A DNA stretch of 64,000 nt from the human T2T-CHM13v2.0 reference genome, Homo sapiens: NCBI RefSeq assembly GCF_009914755.1, contig NC_060931.1. One strand, 5' to 3'. The translations under genes and the position numbers were made by a program. Positions 38,613 to 57,734 of the stretch are shown in pieces. How positions within the stretch are numbered: the stretch's first letter is position 1; each line of letters opens with the position of its first letter. The notes below the pieces were generated by a model. That model was not told where the DNA came from. It worked only from the letters and a program-made list of their open reading frames with translations, and made no database searches.

Positions 38613-40729
38613 TAATTTTTGTATTTTTTTTTTTTTTTTCAGTAGAGACGGGTTTCACCATGTTTGGCTGGGCTGGTCTCGAACTCCTGACCTCAGGTGA
38701 TCCACCCACCTTGGCCTCCCAAAGTGCTGAGATTACAGACTTGAGCCACGGTGCCCCGCCTGAATAGGAGCTTCTTAATCAAAATTTCAGCATGGCTCTG
38801 GGTCAAAATTGACCAGCTGATTTAATAAGTTGATGTAAAAATTTTACAGTCAGCTACCCCTGGGAGGGGGAGTCTCTCCCTAGTCAGTGAGGCACCAGAT
38901 GCCAGAGCATTGGCAATGTACAAGGGGCTCAGCCCTGTGGCTCATATGTGTAATCCCAGCACACTGAGAGGATGCCTTGAGCCTGGGAGATTGAGGCCAG
39001 CCTGGGTAACAGTGACACCACGTCTCTGCAAAAAAGAAAATTAGGGGAGAACTGTGGTGCGTGCCTATAGTCCCACCTACAGGCAGAGCGAGACCATGTC
39101 CCCCACTAAAAAGAGGCCAAGAATGCAGGAAATATAGATAATATGGGCCCTGTGATGGGTGGAGGCCAAATAGATCAATACAGAATTGAAGAAGACACAG
39201 AGCACTTGTATTTCCCTTCAGGCATAGCGCGCTGGCTAGGACTCCAGTACCGTGAAGGGAGGCAGTGAGAGCAGACATCTGTGCCTCATTCCTGATCTCA
39301 AGGGGAAAGCAAGAACAAGGTGGGTGCCAAGGAGGGGCAAGGGGCTGGGGCAGGCATAGACGTGGCTGGTGAGGAAAGGAGGATAGTTGTTGGGGGAAGG
39401 TGGGGACATACAAGCAGCAGTTCTCAAAATGGGCAGGGTCCTGGCCCCCTCCCTGCCTCTGCTGAACACTGCATCCCATGCCTCTCCCATGGCCACCTGC
39501 TGGGCTAACGGGCTGGATTTAGACTCTGCCCATGTTGGAATCATGCCCTCCTCCAGGGCCGGTGCCTCCCAAAACCCCCCTCTGAGAGAGAGCCACAGCC
39601 CCAGGCTTAGCCCCAGGCCCTGTCACTGCTGTTGGGGGAGGGAGGATGAACCATCCGGGAGGCCTCACACCATTCCAGAGCAGAAATCCTGACACAAAAG
39701 GAATCTCCCATGGGGGTTCAGCTGGGTCCAGAGCCCGGAAAGTGACATAAACACGCACCTTGCATCTAAGGAGAATGCACGTGGCGGTACCGGGCCTGAG
39801 GCCCCTGGGGAGTATGTACCCTCCAGAGCTACCCAGAGGCTGTTGGCTAAAAGTTCTATGTGGCCCCCTCCTTGGGCAGCCTGGTAAGCAGGTGACCTTC
39901 TAGCTGGGTCCCATGGGCCACGGGCAAGGCAGGAATGGAACGAAGAGTCAGTCCTCAGTGGCTGGGTGTTGTATCCCATGCCTATAATCCCAGCACTTTG
40001 GGAGGCTGAGGTGGGCAGATCACTTGAGGCCAGGAGTTTGAGACCAGCCTGGCCAACATGGTGAAACCCTGTCTCTACTAAAAATATAAAAATTAGCTGG
40101 GTGTGGTGGCACACACCTGTAATTCCCAGCTACTTGGAAGGCTGAGGCAGGAGAATTACTTGAACCCAGGAAGCAGAGGTTACCGTGAGCCAAGATCACA
40201 CCATTGCACTCCAGCCTGGGCAACACAGCGAGAATCCATCTCAAAAAAAAAAAACAAAAAGTCCTCAGGCAGGGTGGGCCACCCTCTTGAGGCCTTGCCC
40301 AAACAGCCAGGGGGTCCCTTGTCCTCTTTTCGGCCCACCTTTGCAGGTGGGACCAGTTCAGTCCAAAGCCCCGGTGCCTCAGTTTCCCTGTGGGTTGAAC
40401 AAGGAGAATGAGGTGTATAGGGCCTGGCTCAGACGGAGGGGTTTCCTGAGCATGGGGAGCCTGTTTCCTCAGACCTGTGAAGGGAAGGAGGGTGGATCGG
40501 CCTGACTGGCCCTGGGAAGCACAGAGGAGCCTACTGGGACCAGGGAAGAGACTGACAAGAGAAGGGAGGCCTGTCCCTGCCTGCTTCTGTCTCAAGAAGA
40601 TTGTTATCACTTCCTCTGGTGAAATCCTGCCTTCCTGTCCCCACGGCCCCTCAGCTGATGCCACCTTACTCTGGAGAGGATGGGCAGAGCCTCCTATGGA
40701 GGGAGCCCTGTGGGTCACCAAAGCTCCAG

Positions 40730-40963
<234 letters not shown>

Positions 40964-42191
40964 TGAGTCCAGCTGCCCTGGCACCAAGGAACCTTCCTGG
41001 TTCAGCCATAGGCTCAGGTGTGTGGAGGGAATGACCTGAGGGGCTGTATGAGGGAACAACCTCCTGGGGCTCCCCTATGCCTGAGTTCCTGCAACTCAGA
41101 AGTTGAGGCCCAGAGATCCAGGTAGAGGGGGCTCCAGTCCTGGGACTGCCCTGCAAGTCATGTGGCCTGGGACAGGGCTTCTCCAAGCTCTGTCCCCTCC
41201 TGTGTAGGGCAGGGAGGTCAGAGGGGACCCTGCAGATCCAGTCTCATGTCTGGGGGTCAAGGGGTGGCCTCGAGAGGGACCAGTCTCTGTGTAGGGGACC
41301 GTCAGCCCCCTCACCCCTTGAGCAAGACTGTGGTCCCTGCACCAAGGGAGCAGGCCTGGGGTGGGAAGAGGCCAGCTGGGCTGTGGTGGTGCCTGGGGAC
41401 TGCATGGGAGCCCCTGCCAGGGAGGGAGAGGGACAGAGGACAAGCTGGGGGCTCTGGTGCTTGGGCTGGGGGCTGAGCGCCTGTGACCTCCACTGGCTTC
41501 CTCCTTCTCCTCTCTGAGGACTGAATCTGGGGTGCAGCAGAGCACAGACTCAGGCCCGCCTTTCCTCTCCCTGAAAGAGCCTGCGCTGGCCTTGGACAGA
41601 GAAAGGGATGAGAAGTGAGGCTGAGTGCGGTGGGGTCTGCAGGGATCCAGGTGGGAGGGGCCCAGCCAGCCAAGGTGAGGCCCAGCCCCTCAGCAGGAAG
41701 ATGGGCACTGGGGCCCTTGGGCAGGGCTGACTTGACACTTTTGTGTGACTTGAGCCACTGTGCCCAGCCTGAACACCCTTTCCTGGTAAAACACTCCACA
41801 AACCAGGAAGAGAAGGAATGTACTGCAACAAAATAAAGGCCAGTCATGCAAGGCCCATGGCTGAAAGTCTTTCAGTCATTTTAGATGAAAGACTGAAATC
41901 TTTGCCTCCAAGATCAGGAACAAGAGAAGGATGCCCGCTCTCACTACTTCTATTCAACACAGGATTTGAAGTCAGGCCGGGCACAGTGGCTCACGCCTGT
42001 AATCCCAGCACTTTTGGAGGCTGAGGCGGGCAGATTACTTGAGCCTATGAGTGTGAGACCACCCTGGCCAACATGGCAAAACCCCATCTCTACTAAAAAA
42101 AAAAAAAAAAAAAGGATTTGAAGTCCTGGCCGGAGCAATTAGGCAAGGGATAAAAAGGCACCTAAGGCCCTTTTGCAATAAGAAGCCAGAT

Positions 42192-42205
42192 GGATAAAGG
42201 AAGTG
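42192..42205 (+). promoter_or_regulatory. PILRB proximal ETS/PU.1-like site with adjacent GATA core (GGATAAAGGAAGTG)
   Basis: About 180 bp upstream of the ATG and identical in PILRA (57545-57558). Binding is inferred. Confidence 0.5.
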
Positions 42206-42381
42206 CTGGTCACCCTGGAGGTGTACTGGTTTGGGGAAGGTCCCCGGCCCCCACAGCCCTCTGGGGAGCCTCACCCTGGCTCTCCCCACTCACCTCAGCC
42301 CTCAGGCAGCCCCTCCACAGGGCCCCTCTCCTGCCTGGACAGCTCTGCTGGTCTCCCCGTCCCCTGGAGAAGAACAAGGCC

Positions 42382-42445
42382 ATGGGTCGGCCCCTGCTGC
42401 TGCCCCTGCTGCTCCTGCTGCAGCCGCCAGCATTTCTGCAGCCTG
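42382..42445 (+). CDS. PILRB: PILRB coding exon 1, signal peptide
   Basis: MGRPLLLPLLLLLQPPAFLQP, Kozak gccATGG, donor gtgagt. Confidence 0.96.
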
Positions 42446-42683
42446 GTGAGTACCCAGGACCGCCCAGGTATGGTCTCTGCCCAAACCACAGGAGGGGCCA
42501 ACCCAAGACAAAGGCAGAACATCTGGGGCAGGGGCCAGGCTCCCACCTCCAGCAAACAAGGGCGGGTCCCATAGGGGTGGGTGCCGCCATCTCTTCCCCC
42601 TCCACCCTCCCCCATGCCTGAAGAGTGGGAGACCCAGGCCAGAGGTCAGTCCAGCCACCTGTCACACGACTGCCTGTGGGTGA

Positions 42684-43217
<534 letters not shown>

Positions 43218-43415
43218 TGATGTCTTCACATTTAAACCCAGTGGTCTGGATTGAGAGCTGTTAGCATTTCACCTTGCTACCCCTTCCATGTCTGGGCTTC
43301 TGAGAGCAGCTTGCTCATCCTGAATGTCCCCAATCTAGAAAGCAGCACACCATGCCTTTCATCCAGACGCCCCACACCCCCAGAAGAGGGTCTGCTCATT
43401 CCTCATCTCTTCCAG

Positions 43416-43616
43416 CTGTCACAACCACCACCACCTGGAGGCCCAGCAGCACAACCACCATAGCCGGCCTCAGGGTCACAGAAAGCAAAGGGCACTCAGA
43501 ATCATGGCACCTAAGTCTGGACACTGCCATCAGGGTTGCATTGGCTGTCGCTGTGCTCAAAACTGTCATTTTGGGACTGCTGTGCCTCCTCCTCCTGTGG
43601 TGGAGGAGAAGGAAAG
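43416..43616 (+). CDS. PILRB: PILRB coding exon 3, Thr-rich stalk and transmembrane helix with Lys (DAP12 pairing)
   Basis: AVTTTTTWRPSS...VALAVAVLKTVILGLLCLLLLWWRRRK. Lys codon at 43559-43561. Confidence 0.96.
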
Positions 43617-43686
43617 GTAAGTGCCCAGAACGCACTGTCTCCTCAAGCTTCCCAGCTGGGGGTTTCTCTGAGCCCACCTGCAGCTA

Positions 43687-43881
<195 letters not shown>

Positions 43882-43900
43882 TCACAAGGCCAAGAGATCA

Positions 43901-44175
<275 letters not shown>

Positions 44176-44858
44176 TCATCAATCATCCACGCTCCCCTGA
44201 AGGTTCCTGGGGAGGGGAGGGCCTGCCCTGGGAAAAGAACAGAGAGAGGAGAAGGGACCAGAATTGGGCTGAGCTCAGCAGGCACTGGCTGACTGCCCTC
44301 CTGCCACGGCCTGGCTTGAAACTGGAGAAGCAAAGTATATAAAGCATAGGCTCTGCTCTCAGGGAACTGGGGGTGTGGAGTTGTCAGTTGCCTCAAGGAC
44401 TAATTGCTTCATTGAGAAAGAACTATGGTATTGCTAAACAAGGGTGGGAGGAGAGAGAGGTAATCAGGGAGGACTTCCCACAGGAGGTGGCATCTGCAGA
44501 TGTCTCAAAAAAGAAAAGAATTAGCCTGGCAAGAGGTGAGGATTGTGTAGAGGTCACTCACTTTCCTTGTGGGTGGAGGAAACCATTCCAGGAGCTGTAG
44601 GAAGCTTGGTGCTGGTGAAGGAGGCAGGAGAGGAGAGAAGAGGAGATGACCTTAGAAATCACATCCAAGAGCCTCTGATCCCAGAGGCAGCGTGAGGCAG
44701 CAAAGGGTGACCTCAGTTCCCCATGAGAGACCTCAGTCTATGGAGGAATGGCCAGAGGTGGGCCAGGCTGGGTCAGTGCAGTGCAGGAGTGAGGTGGAGA
44801 GAGGGAAAGGGCCAGATCCTAGAAAAGATTAAGTAATAAAAACCAATGAGATTGTTAG

Positions 44859-45188
<330 letters not shown>

Positions 45189-46229
45189 TAGTTTTAGTAG
45201 AGACGGGGTTTCACTCTGTTAGCCAGGATGGTCTCGATCTCCTGACCTCGTGATCCGCCTGCCTCGGCCTTCCAAAGTGCTGGGATTACAGGCTTGAGCC
45301 ACCGCACCCGGCCAGTTTGGAATCTGTTATACGGGAGATCCATGTGTGGCATCTCAGCAGAGTTGTCCATTGGAAACTTGGATGTACACATTTCCAGTTC
45401 AAAAGAGAGGACAAGGCTCCAGGCAGCAATGAGTTCTACCTCAATATCCTCCAAACCTGACAGTAAGTTACCATCAAGAAAGTCTTCAGGCCAGGCACGG
45501 TGGCTAATGCCTATAATCCCAGCACCTTGGGAGGCCAAGGCGGCTGGATCACCTGAGGTCAGGCGTTCAAGACCAGCCTGGCCAAAATGGTGAAACCCCA
45601 TCTCAATTAAAAACACAAAAAATTAGCCAGGCATGGTGGCCGACACCTGTAGTCCAAGCTACTCAGGAAGCTGAGGCAGGAGAATTGCTTGAACCCAGGA
45701 GGTGGAGGCTGCAGTGAGCCGAGATGGTGACACTGCACTCCAGCCTGGCTGATAGAGCGAGACTCCATCTATAAAAAGTAAAAAAGAAAGTCTTCAGTGA
45801 AAGGAGATTCGCCCTATCAGCTATGAAAGCACAGAGGGGAGGAACATGGAGTAGGGGCTGCCTGCAGTCAGATCCTGCCCTCACAACCTTGCCAGGGAAA
45901 CAGGCTCGTGGGTACAAAGGTTGTGTGCCTCAACTTCCTCATGGAAGCACGTGAGATTATTTTATAACCATAGAGTGGAGACAGTCAGTATGACCACCAA
46001 ACCCAGGAGCCATATATTAAAATACTGATAAATTTAACTATATAAAAAAATTTTTGCCGGGTGCGGTGGCTCACACCTGTGATTCTAGCAGAAAATCAGA
46101 TCAGGAGATCACAGAAGGTCAAGGAACTACTGAGAGAGCAGGAATGGAGAGCAGGGGGGTCAGCAGGAAGCTTGGAGAATCTGCAAAATAGTAGATTACA
46201 AAGGATCAAAAGTCAGTGAGGTTCAACAA

Positions 46230-50025
<3,796 letters not shown>

Positions 50026-50053
50026 TGGTTTTTTTTTTTTTTTTTTTTTTTAG

Positions 50054-50245
<192 letters not shown>

Positions 50246-51171
50246 TGATCTCGAACTCCTGACCTCAGGTGATCTGCCCACCTTGGCCTCCCAATCCTGG
50301 GATTATCACCGCGTGAGCCACCGCACCCACCTTAGGTGTTAGGCTGGAAGGAGTGAAAGTTGCAATATGAAAATGATACTAGCAGTTAATATTTCAGAGT
50401 TCCCAGTCCCAACATTAAAAAACAAAAAACCTGTAGAAGTGGAAGGGGAGGTCCCTGGAGTTGAGGGGTGCCGTGAGGCCTGGGTTCAGAGGGTGTCTCT
50501 GTGGACGTGGAGCCCTCCCAGGAGGGGGCTGGATGGTGGAGGGGATGTCTGTGGACCAGGAGCCCAGTGCTTGGGAAACACTGCAAGGATGCCAGGGGGA
50601 CAAGAGGGGCAGGGCACAGTGGGAGAGGCAGCAGAGGATTCAGGGTGAGACCAGCCAGAGGGGAGGGGAGGCCTAGAGGTGGCAACAGAACTTGAACAGC
50701 CACAAACATGAGTCCCAAGCATGAGGCTCCCAAGGCTGGAGGGCAGACACAGCCGCCACCCAGAAGGAAACCACAGGCGCGGTCTCCCTGAGGACCTGGA
50801 GGGAGAGGTGGGGGTGCCTATGTCAAGGGAAGGGGAGGGAAGGAAGAGATGGGTGGGCGAGGGCTCAGCGATAGAGGGAGCCAGGTTGGGGCTGAGCAGA
50901 GAGCTCAAGAGCGAAGGAAGCCAACAGAGGGTAGCAAGGTTTTGCGGGGGCGGTTTCAGGAGATGACGTGGTGGACAACAGGGAGAACAGGTCGGGGGGG
51001 AGCCTCAGGGTGCCAGCTGAGTCCCAGGCCCTTCCTGATGGGTTTGGGCAGAGCTGATCTGCTGCTCTGGTCCCTCTAAGGAGGGCCTCAGCCTAGGGCG
51101 CAGCAGAGAAGGTGGGATGGAGACTGCTATCACCTGGATGCCACCCTGACTCACTGTTGGTCCCCCTACAC

Positions 51172-51205
51172 GTCAGCAGCGGACTAAAGCCACAACCCCA
51201 GCCAG
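51172..51205 (+). pseudogene. Fossil PILRA-type cytoplasmic exon (GQQRTKATTPAR) in PILRB intron 3
   Basis: Matches the recalled PILRA juxtamembrane sequence in the correct phase. Flanks are ctacAC| and |CTgagt. Confidence 0.85.
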
Positions 51206-51399
51206 CTGAGTGCTGGGCCTCCCCAAGGGAGTGGGGAGTACAGGTGCGGGCAGGGGACGGGTTTGGAAATCAGGGACTGTGCTGCTAAGAACCCCACAAG
51301 CCCAGCCTGCCACAAATTCTCCTGAGTTTTTGCCACCTCCCACTTAAATCTGATCTCTGAAGCAACTGCCTCGCCTGCCTCACTAATAATCCTGGCCCT

Positions 51400-51755
51400 G
51401 CATCTAAAAACACTTCCCCTCCTGCAGGTAGCAGGGCGCCAAGCAGTGACTTCTGACCAACAGAGTGTGGGGAGAAGGGATGTGTATTAGCCCCGGAGGA
51501 CGTGATGTGAGACCCGCTTGTGAGTCCTCCACACTCGTTCCCCATTGGCAAGATACATGGAGAGCACCCTGAGGACCTTTAAAAGGCAAAGCCGCAAGGC
51601 AGAAGGAGGCTGGGTCCCTGAATCACCGACTGGAGGAGAGTTACCTACAAGAGCCTTCATCCAGGAGCATCCACACTGCAATGATATAGGAATGAGGTCT
51701 GAACTCCACTGAATTAAACCACTGGCATTTGGGGGCTGTTTATTATAGCAGTGCA
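51400..51755 (+). mobile_element. MLT1-type MaLR LTR overlapping the PILRB last exon
   Basis: Motifs gtgacttctgaccaacagagtgt...gaagggatgtg, ctgggtccctgaatcacc..tggag and aaaccactggcatttgggggctgtttattatagca. Confidence 0.65.
51428..51456 (+). CDS. PILRB: PILRB last coding exon (GSRAPSSDF*); 3'UTR to about 51910
   Basis: cctgcag| acceptor. 64+390+201+29 = 684 nt = 227 aa plus stop. AATAAA at 51884-51889. Confidence 0.93.
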
Positions 51756-52048
51756 AAGAGTTCCTTTATCCTCCCCAAGGATGGAAAAATACAATTTATT
51801 TTGCTTACCATACACCCCTTTTCTCCTCGTCCACATTTTCCAATCTGTATGGTGGCTGTCTTCTATGGCAGAAGGTTTTGGGGAATAAATAGCGTGAAAT
51901 GCTGCTGACACTTCCCTGTGCATCTCCCACATGGCTGCCAAGTGCCCCTTCCTGCTCTGCAGTACCTGAGTCCAGTCATGATGCAGGGAGCCTCCCCACT
52001 AGAAACAGATGGCACTCACAGATTTAAAGCAGTTGGAAGCAAGTTTAA

Positions 52049-52995
<947 letters not shown>

Positions 52996-54011
52996 GGGCC
53001 AGGCACAGTGGCTCATGACTGTAATCCCAGCACATTTTGAGGCTGAGGTGGGAGAATCAATTGAGCCCTCAGGTGGCAACTGAGGCTGCAGTGAGTTGTG
53101 ATTGCACCACTGTACTCCAGCCTGGGTGACAGAGAGAGAGCCTGTCTCAAAAAAAAAAGACAAAACAAAAAACCTGGCCAATACGGTGAAACCCCATCTC
53201 TACTGAAAATGATCGTCACCTGATCCCCACCCCTTGAAGATGCCTCCACCCTCTCCATACGCATTTGGTCAGCACTAACTGCCCTGGGTGACAGGCACAC
53301 TGCACTGGGTGACAAGGACCCAAAGCTACACCAGCCAGTGCCCCAGCCCTCAAGCACCTCCCTGTGCAGAAGGAAGACAACACAGAAAAGGGAAGCATGG
53401 TTGTCACAGAGGCCCAGAGGACTGCTGGCTGATGTCACTGAATGGGGAAGTGGTTGGCCGCACAGGCCCCAAGCTCAGACCTGATGCCACAGTGGACGTT
53501 CCTGGGCCATGTGACCTCAGGCTAGGCTCAGAACCACCCTCAGGGCCTCCGTTTCTTTCTGTATAAATTGAGGACCATACAGAGATGCTGCCTACCTCCT
53601 GGGATTGTCCAGAGAGTTAAAAGCTCTTTTAAAATGCGCCTGCTGGGCCAGGCACAGTGTCTCACACCTGTAATCCCAGCACTTTGGGAGGCTGAGGCAG
53701 GCAGATCACAAGGTCAGGAGGTCGAGACCAGCCTGAACAACATAGCAAAGCTCCATCTCTACTAAAAATACAAAAAGTAGCCGGGCGGGCATGGTGGCAC
53801 GTGCCTGTAATCCCAGCTACTCAGGAGGCTGAGGCAGGAGAATCACTTGAACTCAGGAAGTGGAAGTTGCAGTGAGCCGAGATTGTACCATTGCACTCCA
53901 GCCTGGGTGACAGAGCGAGACTCCGTCTCAAAAAATAAAAATAAATCAAATGCACCTGCTGGCAGGGCGCGGTGGTTCATGCCTGTAATCTCAGCAACTT
54001 TGGGAGGCCTA

Positions 54012-55075
<1,064 letters not shown>

Positions 55076-57734
55076 GGGGCTTGGTGAGGTGGCTCACACC
55101 TGTCATCCCAGCACTGAGGGAGGCCGAGGCAGGAGGATTGCTTAAGCCCAGGAACTTGAGACCAGCCTAGACAACATAGTGAGACCCCATCTCTCAAAAA
55201 AAAAAAAAAATTAGCCGTGTGTGGTGGTGTGTGCCTGTGGTCTTCACTACTTGGGAGGCTGAGGTCAGCAAATTGCTTCAGCCCAGGAGTGATGGTGATC
55301 GCGTCCCTACACTCCAGTCTGTGGACACTCTAGTACCTTGAGGACAGTACAGCCTGATTACAGAAGCTTTACAGCAAGTCTTGAAGTCAGGTATTATAAA
55401 TCTTCCACCTTCATTCTTCATTTGTAAAGGCCTTTTGGCTATTCTAGGTCCTTTGAATTACTGTGAGAATATTACAGTTGGCTTGTGAACTCCACAAAGC
55501 CTATGGGATGTCGATTGGGATCAGAGGAAAGCAGGAACGGTGGGTGCCAAGGAGAGGTGAGGGGCTGGGGGCAGGGACGGATGTGGCCAGTGAGGACAGT
55601 AGGATACTTGTTGGGGGAATGTGGGGACATCCAAGCAGTGGTTCTCATAATGCGGTGCAGGGTACTTACCCCCTCCCTGCCCCTGCTCCCCACACACGAC
55701 TTCCCACGCCTCTCCCATGAGCACCTGCACTAAGGGGCTGCATTTAGGCTCTGCCCACATTGGAATCATGCCCTCCTCCAGGCCCTCCTCCTCCTCTCAG
55801 AAGCCCTGTCTGTGAGAGAGCCACAGCCCCAGGCTCAGTCCCAGGTTCTGTCACTGCTGTTGGGGGAGGGAGGATGAACAAATCCAGGAGACCTCACACC
55901 ATCCCAGAGCAGAAATCCTGACACAGAAGGAATCTCCCATGGGGGTTCAGCTGGATCCAGGGCCTGAAAGTGACATAAACATGCATGTTGCATCTAAGGA
56001 GACTGCACGTGGCAGCATTGGGCAGCATGTGCCCTCCAGAGCTACCCAGAGGCTGTTGGCTATAAGTTCTATGTGGCCCCCACATTGGACAGCCTGGTAA
56101 GCAGGTGACCTTTCAGCCAGGTCCTCAGGTGGGGCGGGCCACCCTCTCGAGGCCCTGCCCAGACAGCCAGGGGGTCCCTTGTCCTCTCTGCAGCCCATCT
56201 TTCCAGCTGTGACCAGTTCAGCCCAAAGCCCCCGTCCCTCAGTTTCCCTGTGGGTTGAATGGAGATAATGTGTCACCTCAGAATGTTGTGAAGCAGAGAA
56301 TGAGGTGTTTAGGGCCTGGCTCAGACGGAGGGGTTTCCTGAGCATGGGGAACCTGTTTCCTCAGGCCTGTAAAGGGAGGGAGGGCGGGCCGGCCTGGCTG
56401 GCCCTGGGAAGCACAGAGGAGCCTACTAGGACCAGGGAAGAGACTAAGAGAAGGGAGGCCCGTCCCTGCCTGCTTCTGTCTCAAGAAGGCTGATGTCACT
56501 TCCTCTGATGAAATCCTGTCTTCCCCCACGGCCCCTCAACTGATGCCACCTCACCCTGGAGAGGGTGGGCAGAGCCTCCTACGGAGGGAGCCCTGTGCAC
56601 CACCAAAGCTCCCTGCTCCAGTGACCACCCCCGGGCAAAGGCCGGCAGATCCCCGTTAGAGATGGGCCCAGGACTGTGTGTGGGGTGGGTGTTGCTCTGA
56701 GCCTTCACTTTCTTCTGTGTCCAAGGAAGCTTCTGGATCAGCCAAGGGCTCAGGTGTGTGGAGGGAATGACCTGAGGGGCTGTATGAAGGGACAGCCTCC
56801 TGTCCTGCACTCAGAAGTTGAGGCCCAGAGATTCCACCCTTCAGCCAGGCCCAGACATCTGGGTTGAGGGGGCTCCAGTCCTGTACCCACTACTGCAAGT
56901 CACGTGGCCTGGGGCAGGGCTTCTCAGAGCCCTGTCCCCTCCTGTGTAGGGCGGGACGTCAGAGGGGAGCCTGCAGACCCAGTCTCATGTCTTGGGGGTC
57001 AAGGGGTGGCTTCCAGAAGGACCAGTCTCTGTGTAGGGGACCATTAGCCCCCTCACCCCTTGAGCAAGGTCGTGGTGCCTGCACCGAGAGAGGGCCTGGG
57101 GCAGGAAGAGGCCAGCTGGGTCGTGGTGGTGCCTGGGGACTGCATGGGAGCCCCTGCCAGGGAGGGAGAGGGACAGAGGACAAGCTGGGGGCTCTTCTGC
57201 TTGGGCTGGGGGCTGAGCACCTGTGACCTCCACCGGCTTCCTTCTCCTCCTCTCTGAGGACTGAATCTGGGGCGCAGAAGGACAGAGATTCAGGCCTGCC
57301 TTTCCTCTCCCTGAAAGAGCCTGCGCTGGCCCTGGGCAGAGAGAAGGATGAGAAGTGAGGCTGAGTGAGGTGGGGTCTGCAGGGATCCAGGTGGGAGGGG
57401 CCCAGCCAGCCAAGGTCAGGCCCAGCCCCCCAAGGTCAGGCCCAGCCCCTCGGCAGGAGGACGGGGACCGCGGCCTTTGGGCAGGGCTGACTTGGCACTG
57501 ACCACAAGGGAGGCCCTTTTGCAATAGGGGAAAATAAGCCAGATGGATAAAGGAAGTGCTGGTCACCCTGGAGGTGCACTGGTTTGGGGAAGGCTCCTGG
57601 CCCCCACAGCCCTCTTCGGAGCCTGAGCCCGGCTCTCCTCACTCACCTCAACCCCCAGGCGGCCCCTCCACAGGGCCCCTCTCCTGCCTGGACGGCTCTG
57701 CTGGTCTCCCCGTCCCCTGGAGAAGAACAAGGCC

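What the first reader, a model, noticed from the sequence alone, without database searches (positions are those of the whole stretch)
51400..51910. PILRB cytoplasmic tail, stop codon and part of the 3'UTR appear exapted from an MLT1 LTR
Seen: the acceptor, GSRAPSSDF* and the next ~300 bp contain MLT1-like motifs in consensus order, 220 bp after the fossil exon. Inference: an LTR supplied the terminal exon that replaced the ITIM tail, completing the switch to a DAP12-type activating receptor.
Basis: partly seen in the sequence, partly recalled or inferred. Interest (0 to 1): 0.75.

Follow-up and report, generated by a model that had tools for sequence, protein, structure and literature searches.

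The report
Old LTR forms PILRB's last exon
The last exon of the human immune-receptor gene PILRB (its splice site, its nine final codons, its stop and most of its 3' untranslated region) lies inside a very old solitary retrotransposon LTR, an ordinary kind of gene remodelling that had not been pointed out for this gene in the papers searched.

Summary
Window 51390-51770 (+ strand) is one collinear copy of an ancient dispersed repeat of about 435 bp with sharp ends. It scores 196 bits against a column-count profile of 79 other genomic copies; the noise ceiling is 35-37 bits.

- The copy contains the polypyrimidine tract and acceptor AG (51426-51427), the coding tail and stop (51428-51456) and 314 nt of 3'UTR.
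- The last 140 nt of the exon, with the AATAAA at 51884-51889, are not part of it.
- The 67 bp holding acceptor and tail match on their own: 25.8 bits, reached by 0 of 1000 shuffles, 0 of 1000 random pieces and 0 of 46 real acceptors.

The name MLT1 (ERVL-MaLR) is only indirectly supported, because no repeat library was on hand. A copy named MLT1D in print is hit at 55 bits.

PILRB stops being paralogous to PILRA at 51313, so the ITIM exons are simply absent. PILRA's matching intron has no such LTR. LTR-coded tails occur in 5 of 46 anthropoid and 0 of 51 other mammalian PILR proteins, yet non-primate PILRB-like proteins still have the membrane lysine and a short tail. The LTR therefore supplied a terminator in anthropoids, not the activating switch. 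This is a new member of a known kind, of moderate interest.

The parts
50355..51313 (+). Last block of PILRB that is paralogous to PILRA intron and exon sequence. It is 88.5% identical over 969 bp, and the paralogy stops at 51313.
   Evidence: Local blastn; alignment.
51172..51205 (+). PILRA-type 34-nt exon kept as a 'fossil' in human PILRB. The exon body is 34 of 34 identical to PILRA. The acceptor AG reads AC and the donor GT reads CT. No human PILRB transcript in the table given uses it.
   Evidence: alignment; QQRTKATTPA, 100% to PILRA proteins; annotation.
51314..51389 (.). 76 bp of unassigned sequence between the end of the paralogy and the recognisable LTR. It has no PILRA partner and no significant match to the LTR family.
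   Evidence: no partner; 17.0 bits off the diagonal, reached by 29 of 150 shuffles. (55 bp, 51335-51389): 6.7 bits, below the null mean.
51390..51770 (+). Solitary LTR of an ancient dispersed family, probably the MLT1 group of ERVL-MaLR, in sense orientation. It covers about 84% of the family unit. The first ~50 and last ~20 unit positions are not recognisable. It carries no genes.
   Evidence: 196.1 bits, 364 matched positions; by far the top hit in 90 kb, both strands; noise 35-37 bits; same-base share 0.528 against 0.25 when permuted.
51413..51427 (+). Polypyrimidine tract and acceptor AG (51426-51427) of the terminal exon, inside the LTR. The family is itself pyrimidine-rich at these columns.
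   Evidence: pyrimidine share 0.82 in the family columns aligned to 51411-51425, and AG at both acceptor columns in 16 of 56 copies; 51390-51427 scores 18.4 bits, reached by 4 of 1000 shuffles and 0 of 1000 random pieces.
51428..51456 (+). Coding part of the terminal exon: the last two bases of the Gly codon, then SRAPSSDF and TGA. It lies inside the LTR by continuity.
   Evidence: translation of the joined annotated exons; same-base share 0.54 in 51430-51469. TGA at the stop columns in only 4 of 60 copies, so the stop is specific to this copy.
51462..51463 (+). Second AG inside the LTR. It is inferred to be the acceptor used by macaque and snub-nosed monkey PILRB models after the 34-nt exon. 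It opens a 35-codon frame (51464-51566 and onward) that is also open in human.
   Evidence: P0017, P0022 and P0023 match 51462-51566 at 80-91% identity. The acceptor position is inferred from codon phase and was not tested.
51771..51910 (+). Rest of the 3'UTR, with AATAAA at 51884-51889 and the annotated end at 51910. It is not recognisably LTR.
   Evidence: sequence; 20.4 bits off the diagonal, reached by 47 of 150 random pieces; 51771-51800 scores 4.1 bits.

Best explanation
PILRB is a 3'-truncated paralogue of PILRA. Collinear homology ends in the intron after PILRA's 34-nt fourth exon, at window 51313, so the ITIM-coding exons are absent.

Seventy-six bases further on lies a solitary, sense-oriented, very old LTR (51390-51770). 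It is most likely of the MLT1 group of ERVL-MaLR. Its family carries a pyrimidine-rich stretch followed in many copies by AG.

In anthropoid primates that latent site became the 3' splice site of a new terminal exon. In human and squirrel monkey the transmembrane exon splices straight to it. That gives a tail read from LTR sequence: 9 residues in human, where this copy has a TGA, and 25 in squirrel monkey, where it has not. Transcription runs through the LTR to a non-LTR AATAAA 114 nt beyond its recognisable end.

In human the PILRA-type 34-nt exon is silenced by changes at both splice sites. Old World monkey models still use that exon and join it to a second AG inside the same LTR, in another frame.

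Shown: the LTR, its extent, the end of the paralogy, the splice-site changes and the protein tails.
Inferred: the order of events, use of the second acceptor, and the family name.
For: LTR and its extent:
- 196.1 bits for 51390-51770, against a noise ceiling of 35-37 bits.
- On-diagonal pairwise hits on the 5' segment: 17 of 29 HSPs, from 16 of 89 copies. Shuffles gave a mean of 0.6 and a maximum of 3.
- 51390-51456 alone scores 25.8 bits, reached by 0 of 1000 shuffles and 0 of 1000 random pieces and by 0 of 46 real acceptors.
- Same-base share is 0.54 in both 40-bp bins covering the acceptor and tail. It is 0.528 overall and 0.25 when the window bases are permuted.

Family features:
- Motif counts of 120 against 4 and 619 against 110.
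- A unit of about 435 bp with sharp ends.
- A TG-type start in 12 of 25 copies against 0 of 25 in a control zone.
- Homology beyond the ends is Alu-like in 25 of 28 HSPs, so the copies are solitary.
- A latent acceptor: pyrimidine share 0.82, and AG in 16 of 56 copies.

Truncation.

No LTR in PILRA's matching intron: nothing above 31 bits in the PILRA-side stretch 81990-83367.

Tails: 5 of 46 anthropoid proteins and 0 of 51 other proteins carry LTR-coded residues.

Name: a 55.4-bit hit on the + strand, in the interval expected for the MLT1D copy named in Table 1 of PMC11007075.
Against: - The public soft-mask does not mark the region. That mask covers only 5% of 3285 bp in 10 chr7 copies of this family, so it is blind to it.
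- A BLAST-level search of the genome found only 3 short matches, all on 51535-51646.
- The 29 coding bases alone are not significant.
- The first ~50 and last ~20 unit positions are not recognisable, and no target-site duplication was established.
- The core bins (51600-51639) are inflated, because copies were picked by that motif.
- The named MSTB2 MaLR LTR in IL22RA2 is not hit (37 bits, which is noise level).
- The named MLT1D copy is hit only over its 3' third.
- Pairwise divergence is saturated (raw 0.47), so no date could be computed.
- No non-human genome could be read, so the age of this particular insertion is bounded only by proteins.
Confidence: 0.82

Rival explanations
1. The element is a real old LTR, but of another class-III family (for example an MLT2 or other ERVL-type LTR) and not MLT1.
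For: - No repeat library was available.
- The profile matches the MLT1D copy named in print only over profile positions +16..+137.
- It does not detect MSTB2.
- Amit et al. 2007 (PMC2231382, Table 1, passage seen) list an 'LTR49' exon for PILRB transcript NM_013440.
Against: - The method of Amit et al. counts internal exons only, so their LTR49 exon is not this terminal exon.
- The hit on the named MLT1D copy is on the right strand, in the expected interval, and collinear with the 3' end of the unit.
- From recall only: the core word and the ...AATACA end are typical of MaLR LTRs.
Confidence: 0.15
2. Only the 3'UTR (from about 51457) is LTR. The acceptor and the nine codons are unrelated sequence that matches by pyrimidine-tract composition.
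For: - The 29 coding bases alone score 10.1 bits, reached by 134 of 1000 shuffles and 203 of 1000 random pieces.
- Any real acceptor resembles a pyrimidine-rich family segment to some degree.
Against: - 51390-51427 alone scores 18.4 bits on the expected diagonal, reached by 4 of 1000 shuffles and 0 of 1000 random pieces.
- The 46 other real acceptors reach at most 18.9 bits, against 25.8 for the whole 67-bp piece.
- Unanchored, the piece lands at diagonal offset +2.
- Its same-base share of 0.54 equals that of the rest of the element.
Confidence: 0.05
3. The match is chance or low-complexity similarity, and there is no transposable element here.
For: The stretch is unmasked in the assembly's soft-mask, and genome BLAST gave only three short hits.
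Against: - 196 bits against a noise ceiling of 35-37.
- Motif excess of 120 against 4.
- The mask is shown to be blind to this family.
Confidence: 0.01

Closest known systems
LTR-derived last coding exons of human genes (Piriyapongsa et al. 2007, PMC2008291; passages seen)
   Same: That survey counts 571 LTR associations with last CDS exons, of which 71 span both CDS and 3'UTR. MaLR is the commonest family (575 of 1395 associations). PILRB's terminal exon is of exactly this kind: a sense LTR spanning acceptor, CDS end and 3'UTR.
   Different: PILRB does not occur in the main text of that paper (0 occurrences). Its gene list is in a supplement that I could not open. Here the exon is the constitutive terminal exon of the MANE transcript, whereas most LTR-derived coding exons there are alternative.
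IL22RA2 exon 3/4 from an MSTB2 (MaLR) LTR (PMC2008291)
   Same: A sense-oriented MaLR LTR inside an immune-receptor gene is recruited as coding sequence in primates.
   Different: That exon is internal, in-frame, of 96 nt and from a young primate-specific LTR (82.8% to its consensus). Here an ancient LTR ends the protein. My family profile does not detect that MSTB2 copy.
SAMMSON exons from MLT1D and MLT1H1 solo LTRs (PMC11007075)
   Same: Old MaLR solo LTRs form whole exons or parts of exons. The MLT1D copy is the one named comparator that my profile hit, at 55.4 bits.
   Different: That is a non-coding RNA. The similarity to the PILRB element's family covers only the 3' third of the unit.
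Splice-acceptor-driven capture of sense-oriented LTRs (van de Lagemaat et al. 2006, PMC1794541; passages seen)
   Same: That paper argues that acceptor sites in sense-oriented ERVs/LTRs, followed by a polyadenylation signal, are what make them disruptive, or usable, inside genes. PILRB shows that route.
   Different: Here the poly(A) signal used lies outside the LTR.
Leptin receptor short isoform with an LTR-coded C-terminus (recalled: Kapitonov and Jurka 1999; not looked up, and not fetched because that LTR is of the young family barred here)
   Same: An LTR provides an alternative terminal exon and the C-terminal residues of a receptor.
   Different: That case involves a young LTR family and an alternative isoform. 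This comparison rests on recall alone.

Membership tests
ERVL-MaLR LTR, MLT1 group | Dispersed and multi-copy in the genome | tested here: met
   The 18-mer with up to 1 mismatch occurs 120 times against 4 for the control. With up to 2 mismatches the counts are 619 against 110.
ERVL-MaLR LTR, MLT1 group | Discrete unit of LTR size with sharp ends | tested here: met
   The number of copies (of 89) supported by at least 2 others falls from 21 to 5 to 1 between -260 and -300, and from 38 to 14 to 4 between +140 and +180. The unit is about 435 bp.
ERVL-MaLR LTR, MLT1 group | TG...CA termini | tested here: inconclusive
   A TG[GA]C[AT][GA] word is found at the left end in 12 of 25 copies against 0 of 25 in a control zone. 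AATACA is found at the right end in 8 of 34 against 3 of 34. In the window copy itself neither end is recognisable.
ERVL-MaLR LTR, MLT1 group | Target-site duplication of the length typical of class III elements (5 bp, from recall) | not tested
   I only inspected the ends printed by eye. The ends are too imprecise and the copies too old to count duplications.
ERVL-MaLR LTR, MLT1 group | Significant alignment to a library consensus or profile named MLT1x (Dfam, Repbase) | not testable with these tools
   No repeat library is on hand. Rfam gives 0 matches at E<=1 for 51000-52100.
ERVL-MaLR LTR, MLT1 group | Similarity to copies named MLT1 in print | tested here: inconclusive
   MLT1D of SAMMSON: 55.4 bits on the + strand in the expected interval, but only over profile +16..+137. 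ANRIL locus, where print names an MLT1I: 7 hits of 45-60 bits, none of which could be assigned to the named fragment.
ERVL-MaLR LTR, MLT1 group | Great age (print: non-primate-specific MaLRs are shared by eutherians and absent from opossum; PMC10735291) | tested here: inconclusive
   The window copy differs from other copies as much as they differ from each other (raw 0.469 against 0.474). That is consistent with great age, but it is saturated and probably mixes subfamilies. Orthologous presence outside primates could not be read.
MST/THE1 branch of MaLR (primate-specific) | Similarity to a named MSTB2 LTR | tested here: not met
   The best score in the 30-kb IL22RA2 locus is 37.1 bits, equal to the reversed control at 37.3.
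TE-derived terminal coding exon | The element overlaps the 3' splice site, the end of the CDS and the stop of an annotated principal transcript | tested here: met
   The LTR at 51390-51770 contains 51426-51456. The exon belongs to NM_178238.4, flagged 'select'.
TE-derived terminal coding exon | The element supplies the polyadenylation signal | tested here: not met
   The AATAAA at 51884-51889 lies 114 nt beyond the recognisable LTR, and 51771-51910 does not match the family. The ATTAAA at 51713-51718 inside the LTR is not a family feature (0 of 67 copies) and is not the annotated end.
DAP12-type activating paired receptor | Basic residue in the membrane span, and a short tail without ITIM | tested here: met
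   Translation of the joined annotated exons gives ...AVLKTVILGLLCLLLLWWRRRKGSRAPSSDF*. DAP12 association comes from print only (PMC2211832, start of the abstract in the listing).

The most novel reading that the evidence does not exclude
One ancient LTR acts as a tail generator for anthropoid PILRB. It offers two acceptors and two open frames that give lineage-specific cytoplasmic ends:
- 9 residues in human;
- 25 in squirrel monkey, which lacks the stop;
- 35 in macaque-type isoforms that keep the PILRA-type exon.

In the human lineage both splice sites of that 34-nt exon were lost, while its body stayed 34 of 34 identical to PILRA. That fixed the shortest tail.

The near-coincidence of the paralogy break (51313) with the LTR (51390) may mean that the element, or a partner copy, took part in the rearrangement that removed the ITIM exons.
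Probability: 0.35. Interest if true: 0.55.

Novelty: new member of a known kind. Interest (0 to 1): 0.4.

Why it matters
PILRB is half of a paired inhibitory/activating receptor pair that is studied in innate immunity and sits at an Alzheimer's-risk locus. Knowing that its whole cytoplasmic end and most of its 3'UTR are LTR sequence has three consequences.

- It explains why the tail is unrelated to PILRA's.
- It explains why primate tails differ in length and frame.
- It warns against treating the human tail as conserved receptor sequence, for example when transferring results from mouse.

It is also a clean example of a sense-oriented old LTR fixed as a constitutive terminal coding exon. The general phenomenon has been well documented since 2007, so the gain is annotation-level and not conceptual.

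Tried and rejected
1. Assembly soft-mask as a test. There is no masked stretch of 100 bp or more between 50298 and 52049. I rejected this as evidence. The mask covers 23% of chr7 and only 5% of 3285 bp in 10 chr7 copies of this family.

2. Whole-genome DNA search with 51300-51950. It returned only 3 foreign hits, all on 51535-51646. The tool skips common words, so it is nearly blind here.

3. Plain pairwise blastn against 29 copies. Core-only hits came from 24 of the 29, and only L025, L009 and L032 reached upstream of 51535. Sensitivity was too low, so I replaced it with the diagonal-consistency count and the count profile.

4. A MAFFT --add summed-share test. It had no power: z was about 1 even for segments with pairwise support. 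Dropped.

5. Dating by pairwise K80 distances. Raw difference is 0.47 and K80 about 0.8, which would give 170-340 Myr. I rejected this as saturated and probably mixing subfamilies, and give no date from it.

6. A by-eye guess that the LTR starts at a TG near 51358. It is not supported: 51335-51389 scores 6.7 bits, below the null mean.

7. Naming by named copies.
   - The MSTB2 LTR of IL22RA2 was not detected.
   - The ANRIL locus gave 7 hits of 45-60 bits. I could not tell which, if any, is the MLT1I of exon 8, because no exon table for chr9 is held and a cross-check against IL22RA2 found only Alu-like matches.
   - The MLT1D of SAMMSON gave the only usable result. Its place was derived from hg38 coordinates shifted by the gene-start offset, with an uncertainty of about 250 bp.

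8. Shared internal sequence next to copies. There was none: 25 of the 28 on-diagonal HSPs beyond the ends were Alu-like. Four copies in the profile (L047, L065, L069, L087) carry Alu inserts. I left them in, and they only add noise.

9. Papers.
   - 'PILRB' plus 'MLT1' found 0 papers.
   - 'PILRB', 'LTR' and 'exon' found 5 papers, 3 of them listed. The one relevant paper concerns internal exons.
   - Motif words found 1 unrelated paper.
   - Wilson et al. 2006 on the PILR locus (cited in PMC2077338) and Smit 1993 are not held.
   - I did not open any supplements. Supplementary table 2 of PMC2008291 may list PILRB.

10. My slip: one search used the wrong reading frame (42770 instead of 42771). 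It returned only a junk out-of-frame model (P0001) and wasted one of the three protein searches. The third protein search was not used.
Full report
**Question.** The claim covers the acceptor, the tail GSRAPSSDF*, the stop and about 300 bp of 3'UTR.

**Anatomy of the host gene.**
- Joining the annotated exons gives a 227-residue protein ending ...AVLKTVILGLLCLLLLWWRRRKGSRAPSSDF*. The terminal exon contributes the last two bases of the Gly codon, eight codons and TGA (51428-51456).
- The acceptor AG is at 51426-51427, behind a pyrimidine tract. AATAAA is at 51884-51889, and the annotated end is at 51910.
- A paralogy map of PILRB against PILRA shows collinear blocks from 39301 to 51313 on the PILRB side and from 55523 to 82099 on the PILRA side. 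PILRA-side coordinates are the window's coordinates continued along chr7. Block identity ranges from 69% to 93%.
- The last block, 50355-51313, is 88.5% identical over 969 bp. It contains PILRA's 34-nt fourth exon.
- In PILRB that exon (51172-51205) is 34 of 34 identical to PILRA's. Its acceptor reads AC instead of AG, and its donor reads CT instead of GT.
- The paralogy stops at 51313. Nothing from 51314 to 55522 finds a partner in the PILRA locus apart from Alu-like repeats. The ITIM-coding exons are therefore simply not present in PILRB.

**Is there a repeat?**
- The assembly's soft-mask shows nothing between 50298 and 52049. A whole-genome DNA search with 51300-51950 returned only three short foreign hits, all on 51535-51646. 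Neither result is informative. The mask covers 23% of chr7 and only 5% of the 3285 bp belonging to ten chr7 copies of the family defined below.
- The three hits share a core with each other. The 18-mer at 51610-51627 occurs 120 times in the genome with up to 1 mismatch, against 4 for the reversed control. With up to 2 mismatches the counts are 619 against 110.
- I collected 89 copies with 500 bp of flank on each side. Among them, homology anchored on the motif ends sharply at about -270/-260 and +140/+165, a unit of about 435 bp.
- The left end begins with a TG-type word in 12 of 25 copies, against 0 of 25 in a control zone. The right end carries AATACA in 8 of 34, against 3 of 34.
- Homology beyond the ends is Alu-like in 25 of 28 HSPs, so the sampled copies are solitary.

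**Extent in the window.**
- Weak pairwise hits of 51250-51585 against the copies fall on the motif-anchored diagonal in 17 of 29 HSPs, from 16 of 89 copies. The reversed query gave 1 of 14, and twenty shuffles gave a mean of 0.6 and a maximum of 3. The hits cluster at 51444-51487 and 51526-51573.
- I then turned an alignment of 79 copies, each trimmed to the span supported by at least two others, into per-column counts over 451 positions. No majority sequence was made. The window itself was not in the alignment.
- The best local alignment of window 51200-51950 to this profile scores 196.1 bits. It covers window 51390-51770 and profile positions -228..+150, with 364 matched positions, and every 20-bp bin is positive.
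- The two core bins are inflated, because the copies were chosen by the core motif. The other bins are not.
- In 90 kb around PILRB and PILRA, on both strands, this is by far the best hit; the next are 54.6 and 49.4 bits. Reversed-sequence controls of 30 to 134 kb peak at 35-37 bits.
- Across the 364 positions, family copies carry the window's base in 52.8% of cells, against 25% when the window bases are permuted (maximum 29.4%). The two bins that hold the acceptor and tail both give 54%.

**Does the LTR reach the acceptor and the codons?**

| Window piece | Score in a +/-15 band around the anchored diagonal | Shuffles reaching it | Random unmasked pieces reaching it |
|---|---|---|---|
| 51390-51456 | 25.8 bits | 0 of 1000 | 0 of 1000 |
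| 51390-51427 | 18.4 bits | 4 of 1000 | 0 of 1000 |
| 51457-51530 | 30.1 bits | 0 of 1000 | 0 of 1000 |
| 51428-51456 (the 29 coding bases) | 10.1 bits | 134 of 1000 | 203 of 1000 |

- The coding bases alone are too short to be significant. They are inside the element by continuity between two significant flanks.
- When unanchored, 51390-51456 still lands at diagonal offset +2.
- Any acceptor resembles a pyrimidine-rich segment, so I scored the 46 other annotated acceptors in the 90 kb held in the same way. Their mean is 11.9 bits and their maximum 18.9.
- The stretches 51314-51389 and 51771-51910 do not match. The first ~50 and last ~20 unit positions are therefore unrecognisable, and the poly(A) signal is not LTR sequence.

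**How the exon works.**
- Family columns under the pyrimidine tract are 82% pyrimidine. Both acceptor columns read AG in 16 of 56 copies. The family thus carries a latent 3' splice site.
- TGA at the stop columns is found in only 4 of 60 copies, so the stop is a feature of this copy.

**Relatives.** A search with the open frame around the Ig exon returned 97 PILR proteins. By my count of the species names, 46 are from anthropoid primates and 51 from other mammals.
- Residues coded by the LTR occur in 5 of the 46 and 0 of the 51.
- Human: SRAPSSDF.
- Squirrel monkey (P0047): RRAPSSDFG..., with no stop at the human TGA. It runs on in the same frame to ...LEDVM, where the human frame also stops.
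- Two macaque models and one snub-nosed monkey model (P0022, P0023, P0017) keep the PILRA-type exon (GQQQTKATTPAR). They then read 35 residues from window 51464 onward in another frame, 80-91% identical to the human translation of that frame. From codon phase, that requires an acceptor at the AG of 51462-51463, also inside the LTR. This is inferred and was not tested.
- At least nine non-primate PILRB-like proteins have the membrane lysine and short tails ending otherwise, for example straight after ...KRSKG in cats and panda.
- PILRA's matching intron (PILRA-side 81990-83367) holds nothing above 31 bits.

**Family and age.**
- No repeat library was available. Rfam gives nothing for 51000-52100.
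- The MSTB2 MaLR LTR described in IL22RA2 (PMC2008291, passages) is not detected: 37.1 bits, which is noise level.
- In the ANRIL locus, where print names an MLT1I fragment (PMC3831594, Table 1 passage), seven hits of 45-60 bits appear. I could not assign any of them to the named fragment.
- The MLT1D solo LTR of SAMMSON is given at hg38 chr3:70012208-70012665, + strand (PMC11007075, Table 1 passage). It is expected at about T2T chr3:70048754-70049710. The profile hits the + strand there at 55.4 bits (70049500-70049614), but only over profile +16..+137.
- My reading is therefore an old MaLR-type LTR related to MLT1, with the subfamily undetermined. That the core word and the ...AATACA end are typical of MaLR LTRs is recall.
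- The window copy differs from other copies as much as they differ from each other (raw 0.469 against 0.474). That is too saturated to give a date.
- Print states that MaLR members other than the primate-specific ones, MLT1A1 and MLT1C2, are widespread in eutherians and absent from opossum (PMC10735291, passages).
- Direct evidence for this copy reaches only to the common ancestor of New World and Old World anthropoids. From recall, that is roughly 40 million years ago.

**Known or new.**
- LTR sequence in last coding exons is a documented class: 571 associations, of which 71 span CDS and 3'UTR, with MaLR the commonest family (PMC2008291).
- Acceptor-led capture of sense LTRs is described in PMC1794541.
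- I found no paper that links PILRB's terminal exon to an LTR. Amit et al. 2007 list 'AluSx LTR49' exons for a PILRB transcript (PMC2231382), but their method counts internal exons only.
- Supplements were not opened, and Wilson et al. 2006 on the PILR locus is not held. Either may already record this.

**Verdict.** It did not create the activating architecture, which other mammals have without it. This is a new member of a known kind, with interest 0.4.

Noticed in passing
window 51172-51205 against chr7:101637956-101637989 (L003 7956-7989): The PILRA-type 34-nt exon in PILRB is 34 of 34 identical to PILRA's, while both flanking splice dinucleotides are changed (AC for AG, CT for GT). The surrounding block is 88.5% identical, which suggests gene conversion followed by splice-site loss.
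   Followed up: partly
window 51464-51569: The human 3'UTR keeps an open frame of 35 codons (VWGEGMCISPGG...WRAP) that is 80-91% identical to the tails of macaque and snub-nosed monkey PILRB models. A human isoform that included the 34-nt exon would read this frame.
   Followed up: partly
window 45292-45462: The extra 171-nt exon of PILRB isoform 1 (NM_001371931.2) starts inside a masked Alu-sized repeat (44994-45319). Amit et al. 2007 list an 'AluSx' and an 'LTR49' internal exon for a PILRB transcript. I did not locate the LTR49 exon.
   Followed up: no
PILRA intron, about chr7:101634030 (- strand); window about 27018 (+ strand): These are further hits of the same LTR-family profile, at 54.6 and 49.4 bits, above the 35-37 bit noise ceiling. 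They are probably other old fragments of related LTRs.
   Followed up: no
window 51314-55522: This 4.2-kb spacer between the end of PILRB's paralogy and the start of the PILRA-side copy has no partner on either side apart from Alu-like repeats. Its origin, and the 76 bp between the paralogy break and the LTR, remain unexplained.
   Followed up: partly
chr7 soft-mask table (/data/chr7.tsv.gz): The listed masked stretches cover only 23% of chr7 and miss this old LTR family almost entirely (5% of 3285 bp). 'Unmasked' in this table says nothing about ancient repeats.
   Followed up: yes
protein P0001 (Aotus, UniRef): This public 'uncharacterized protein' matches out-of-frame translations of PILRB exons. 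It looks like a mis-framed gene model.
   Followed up: no
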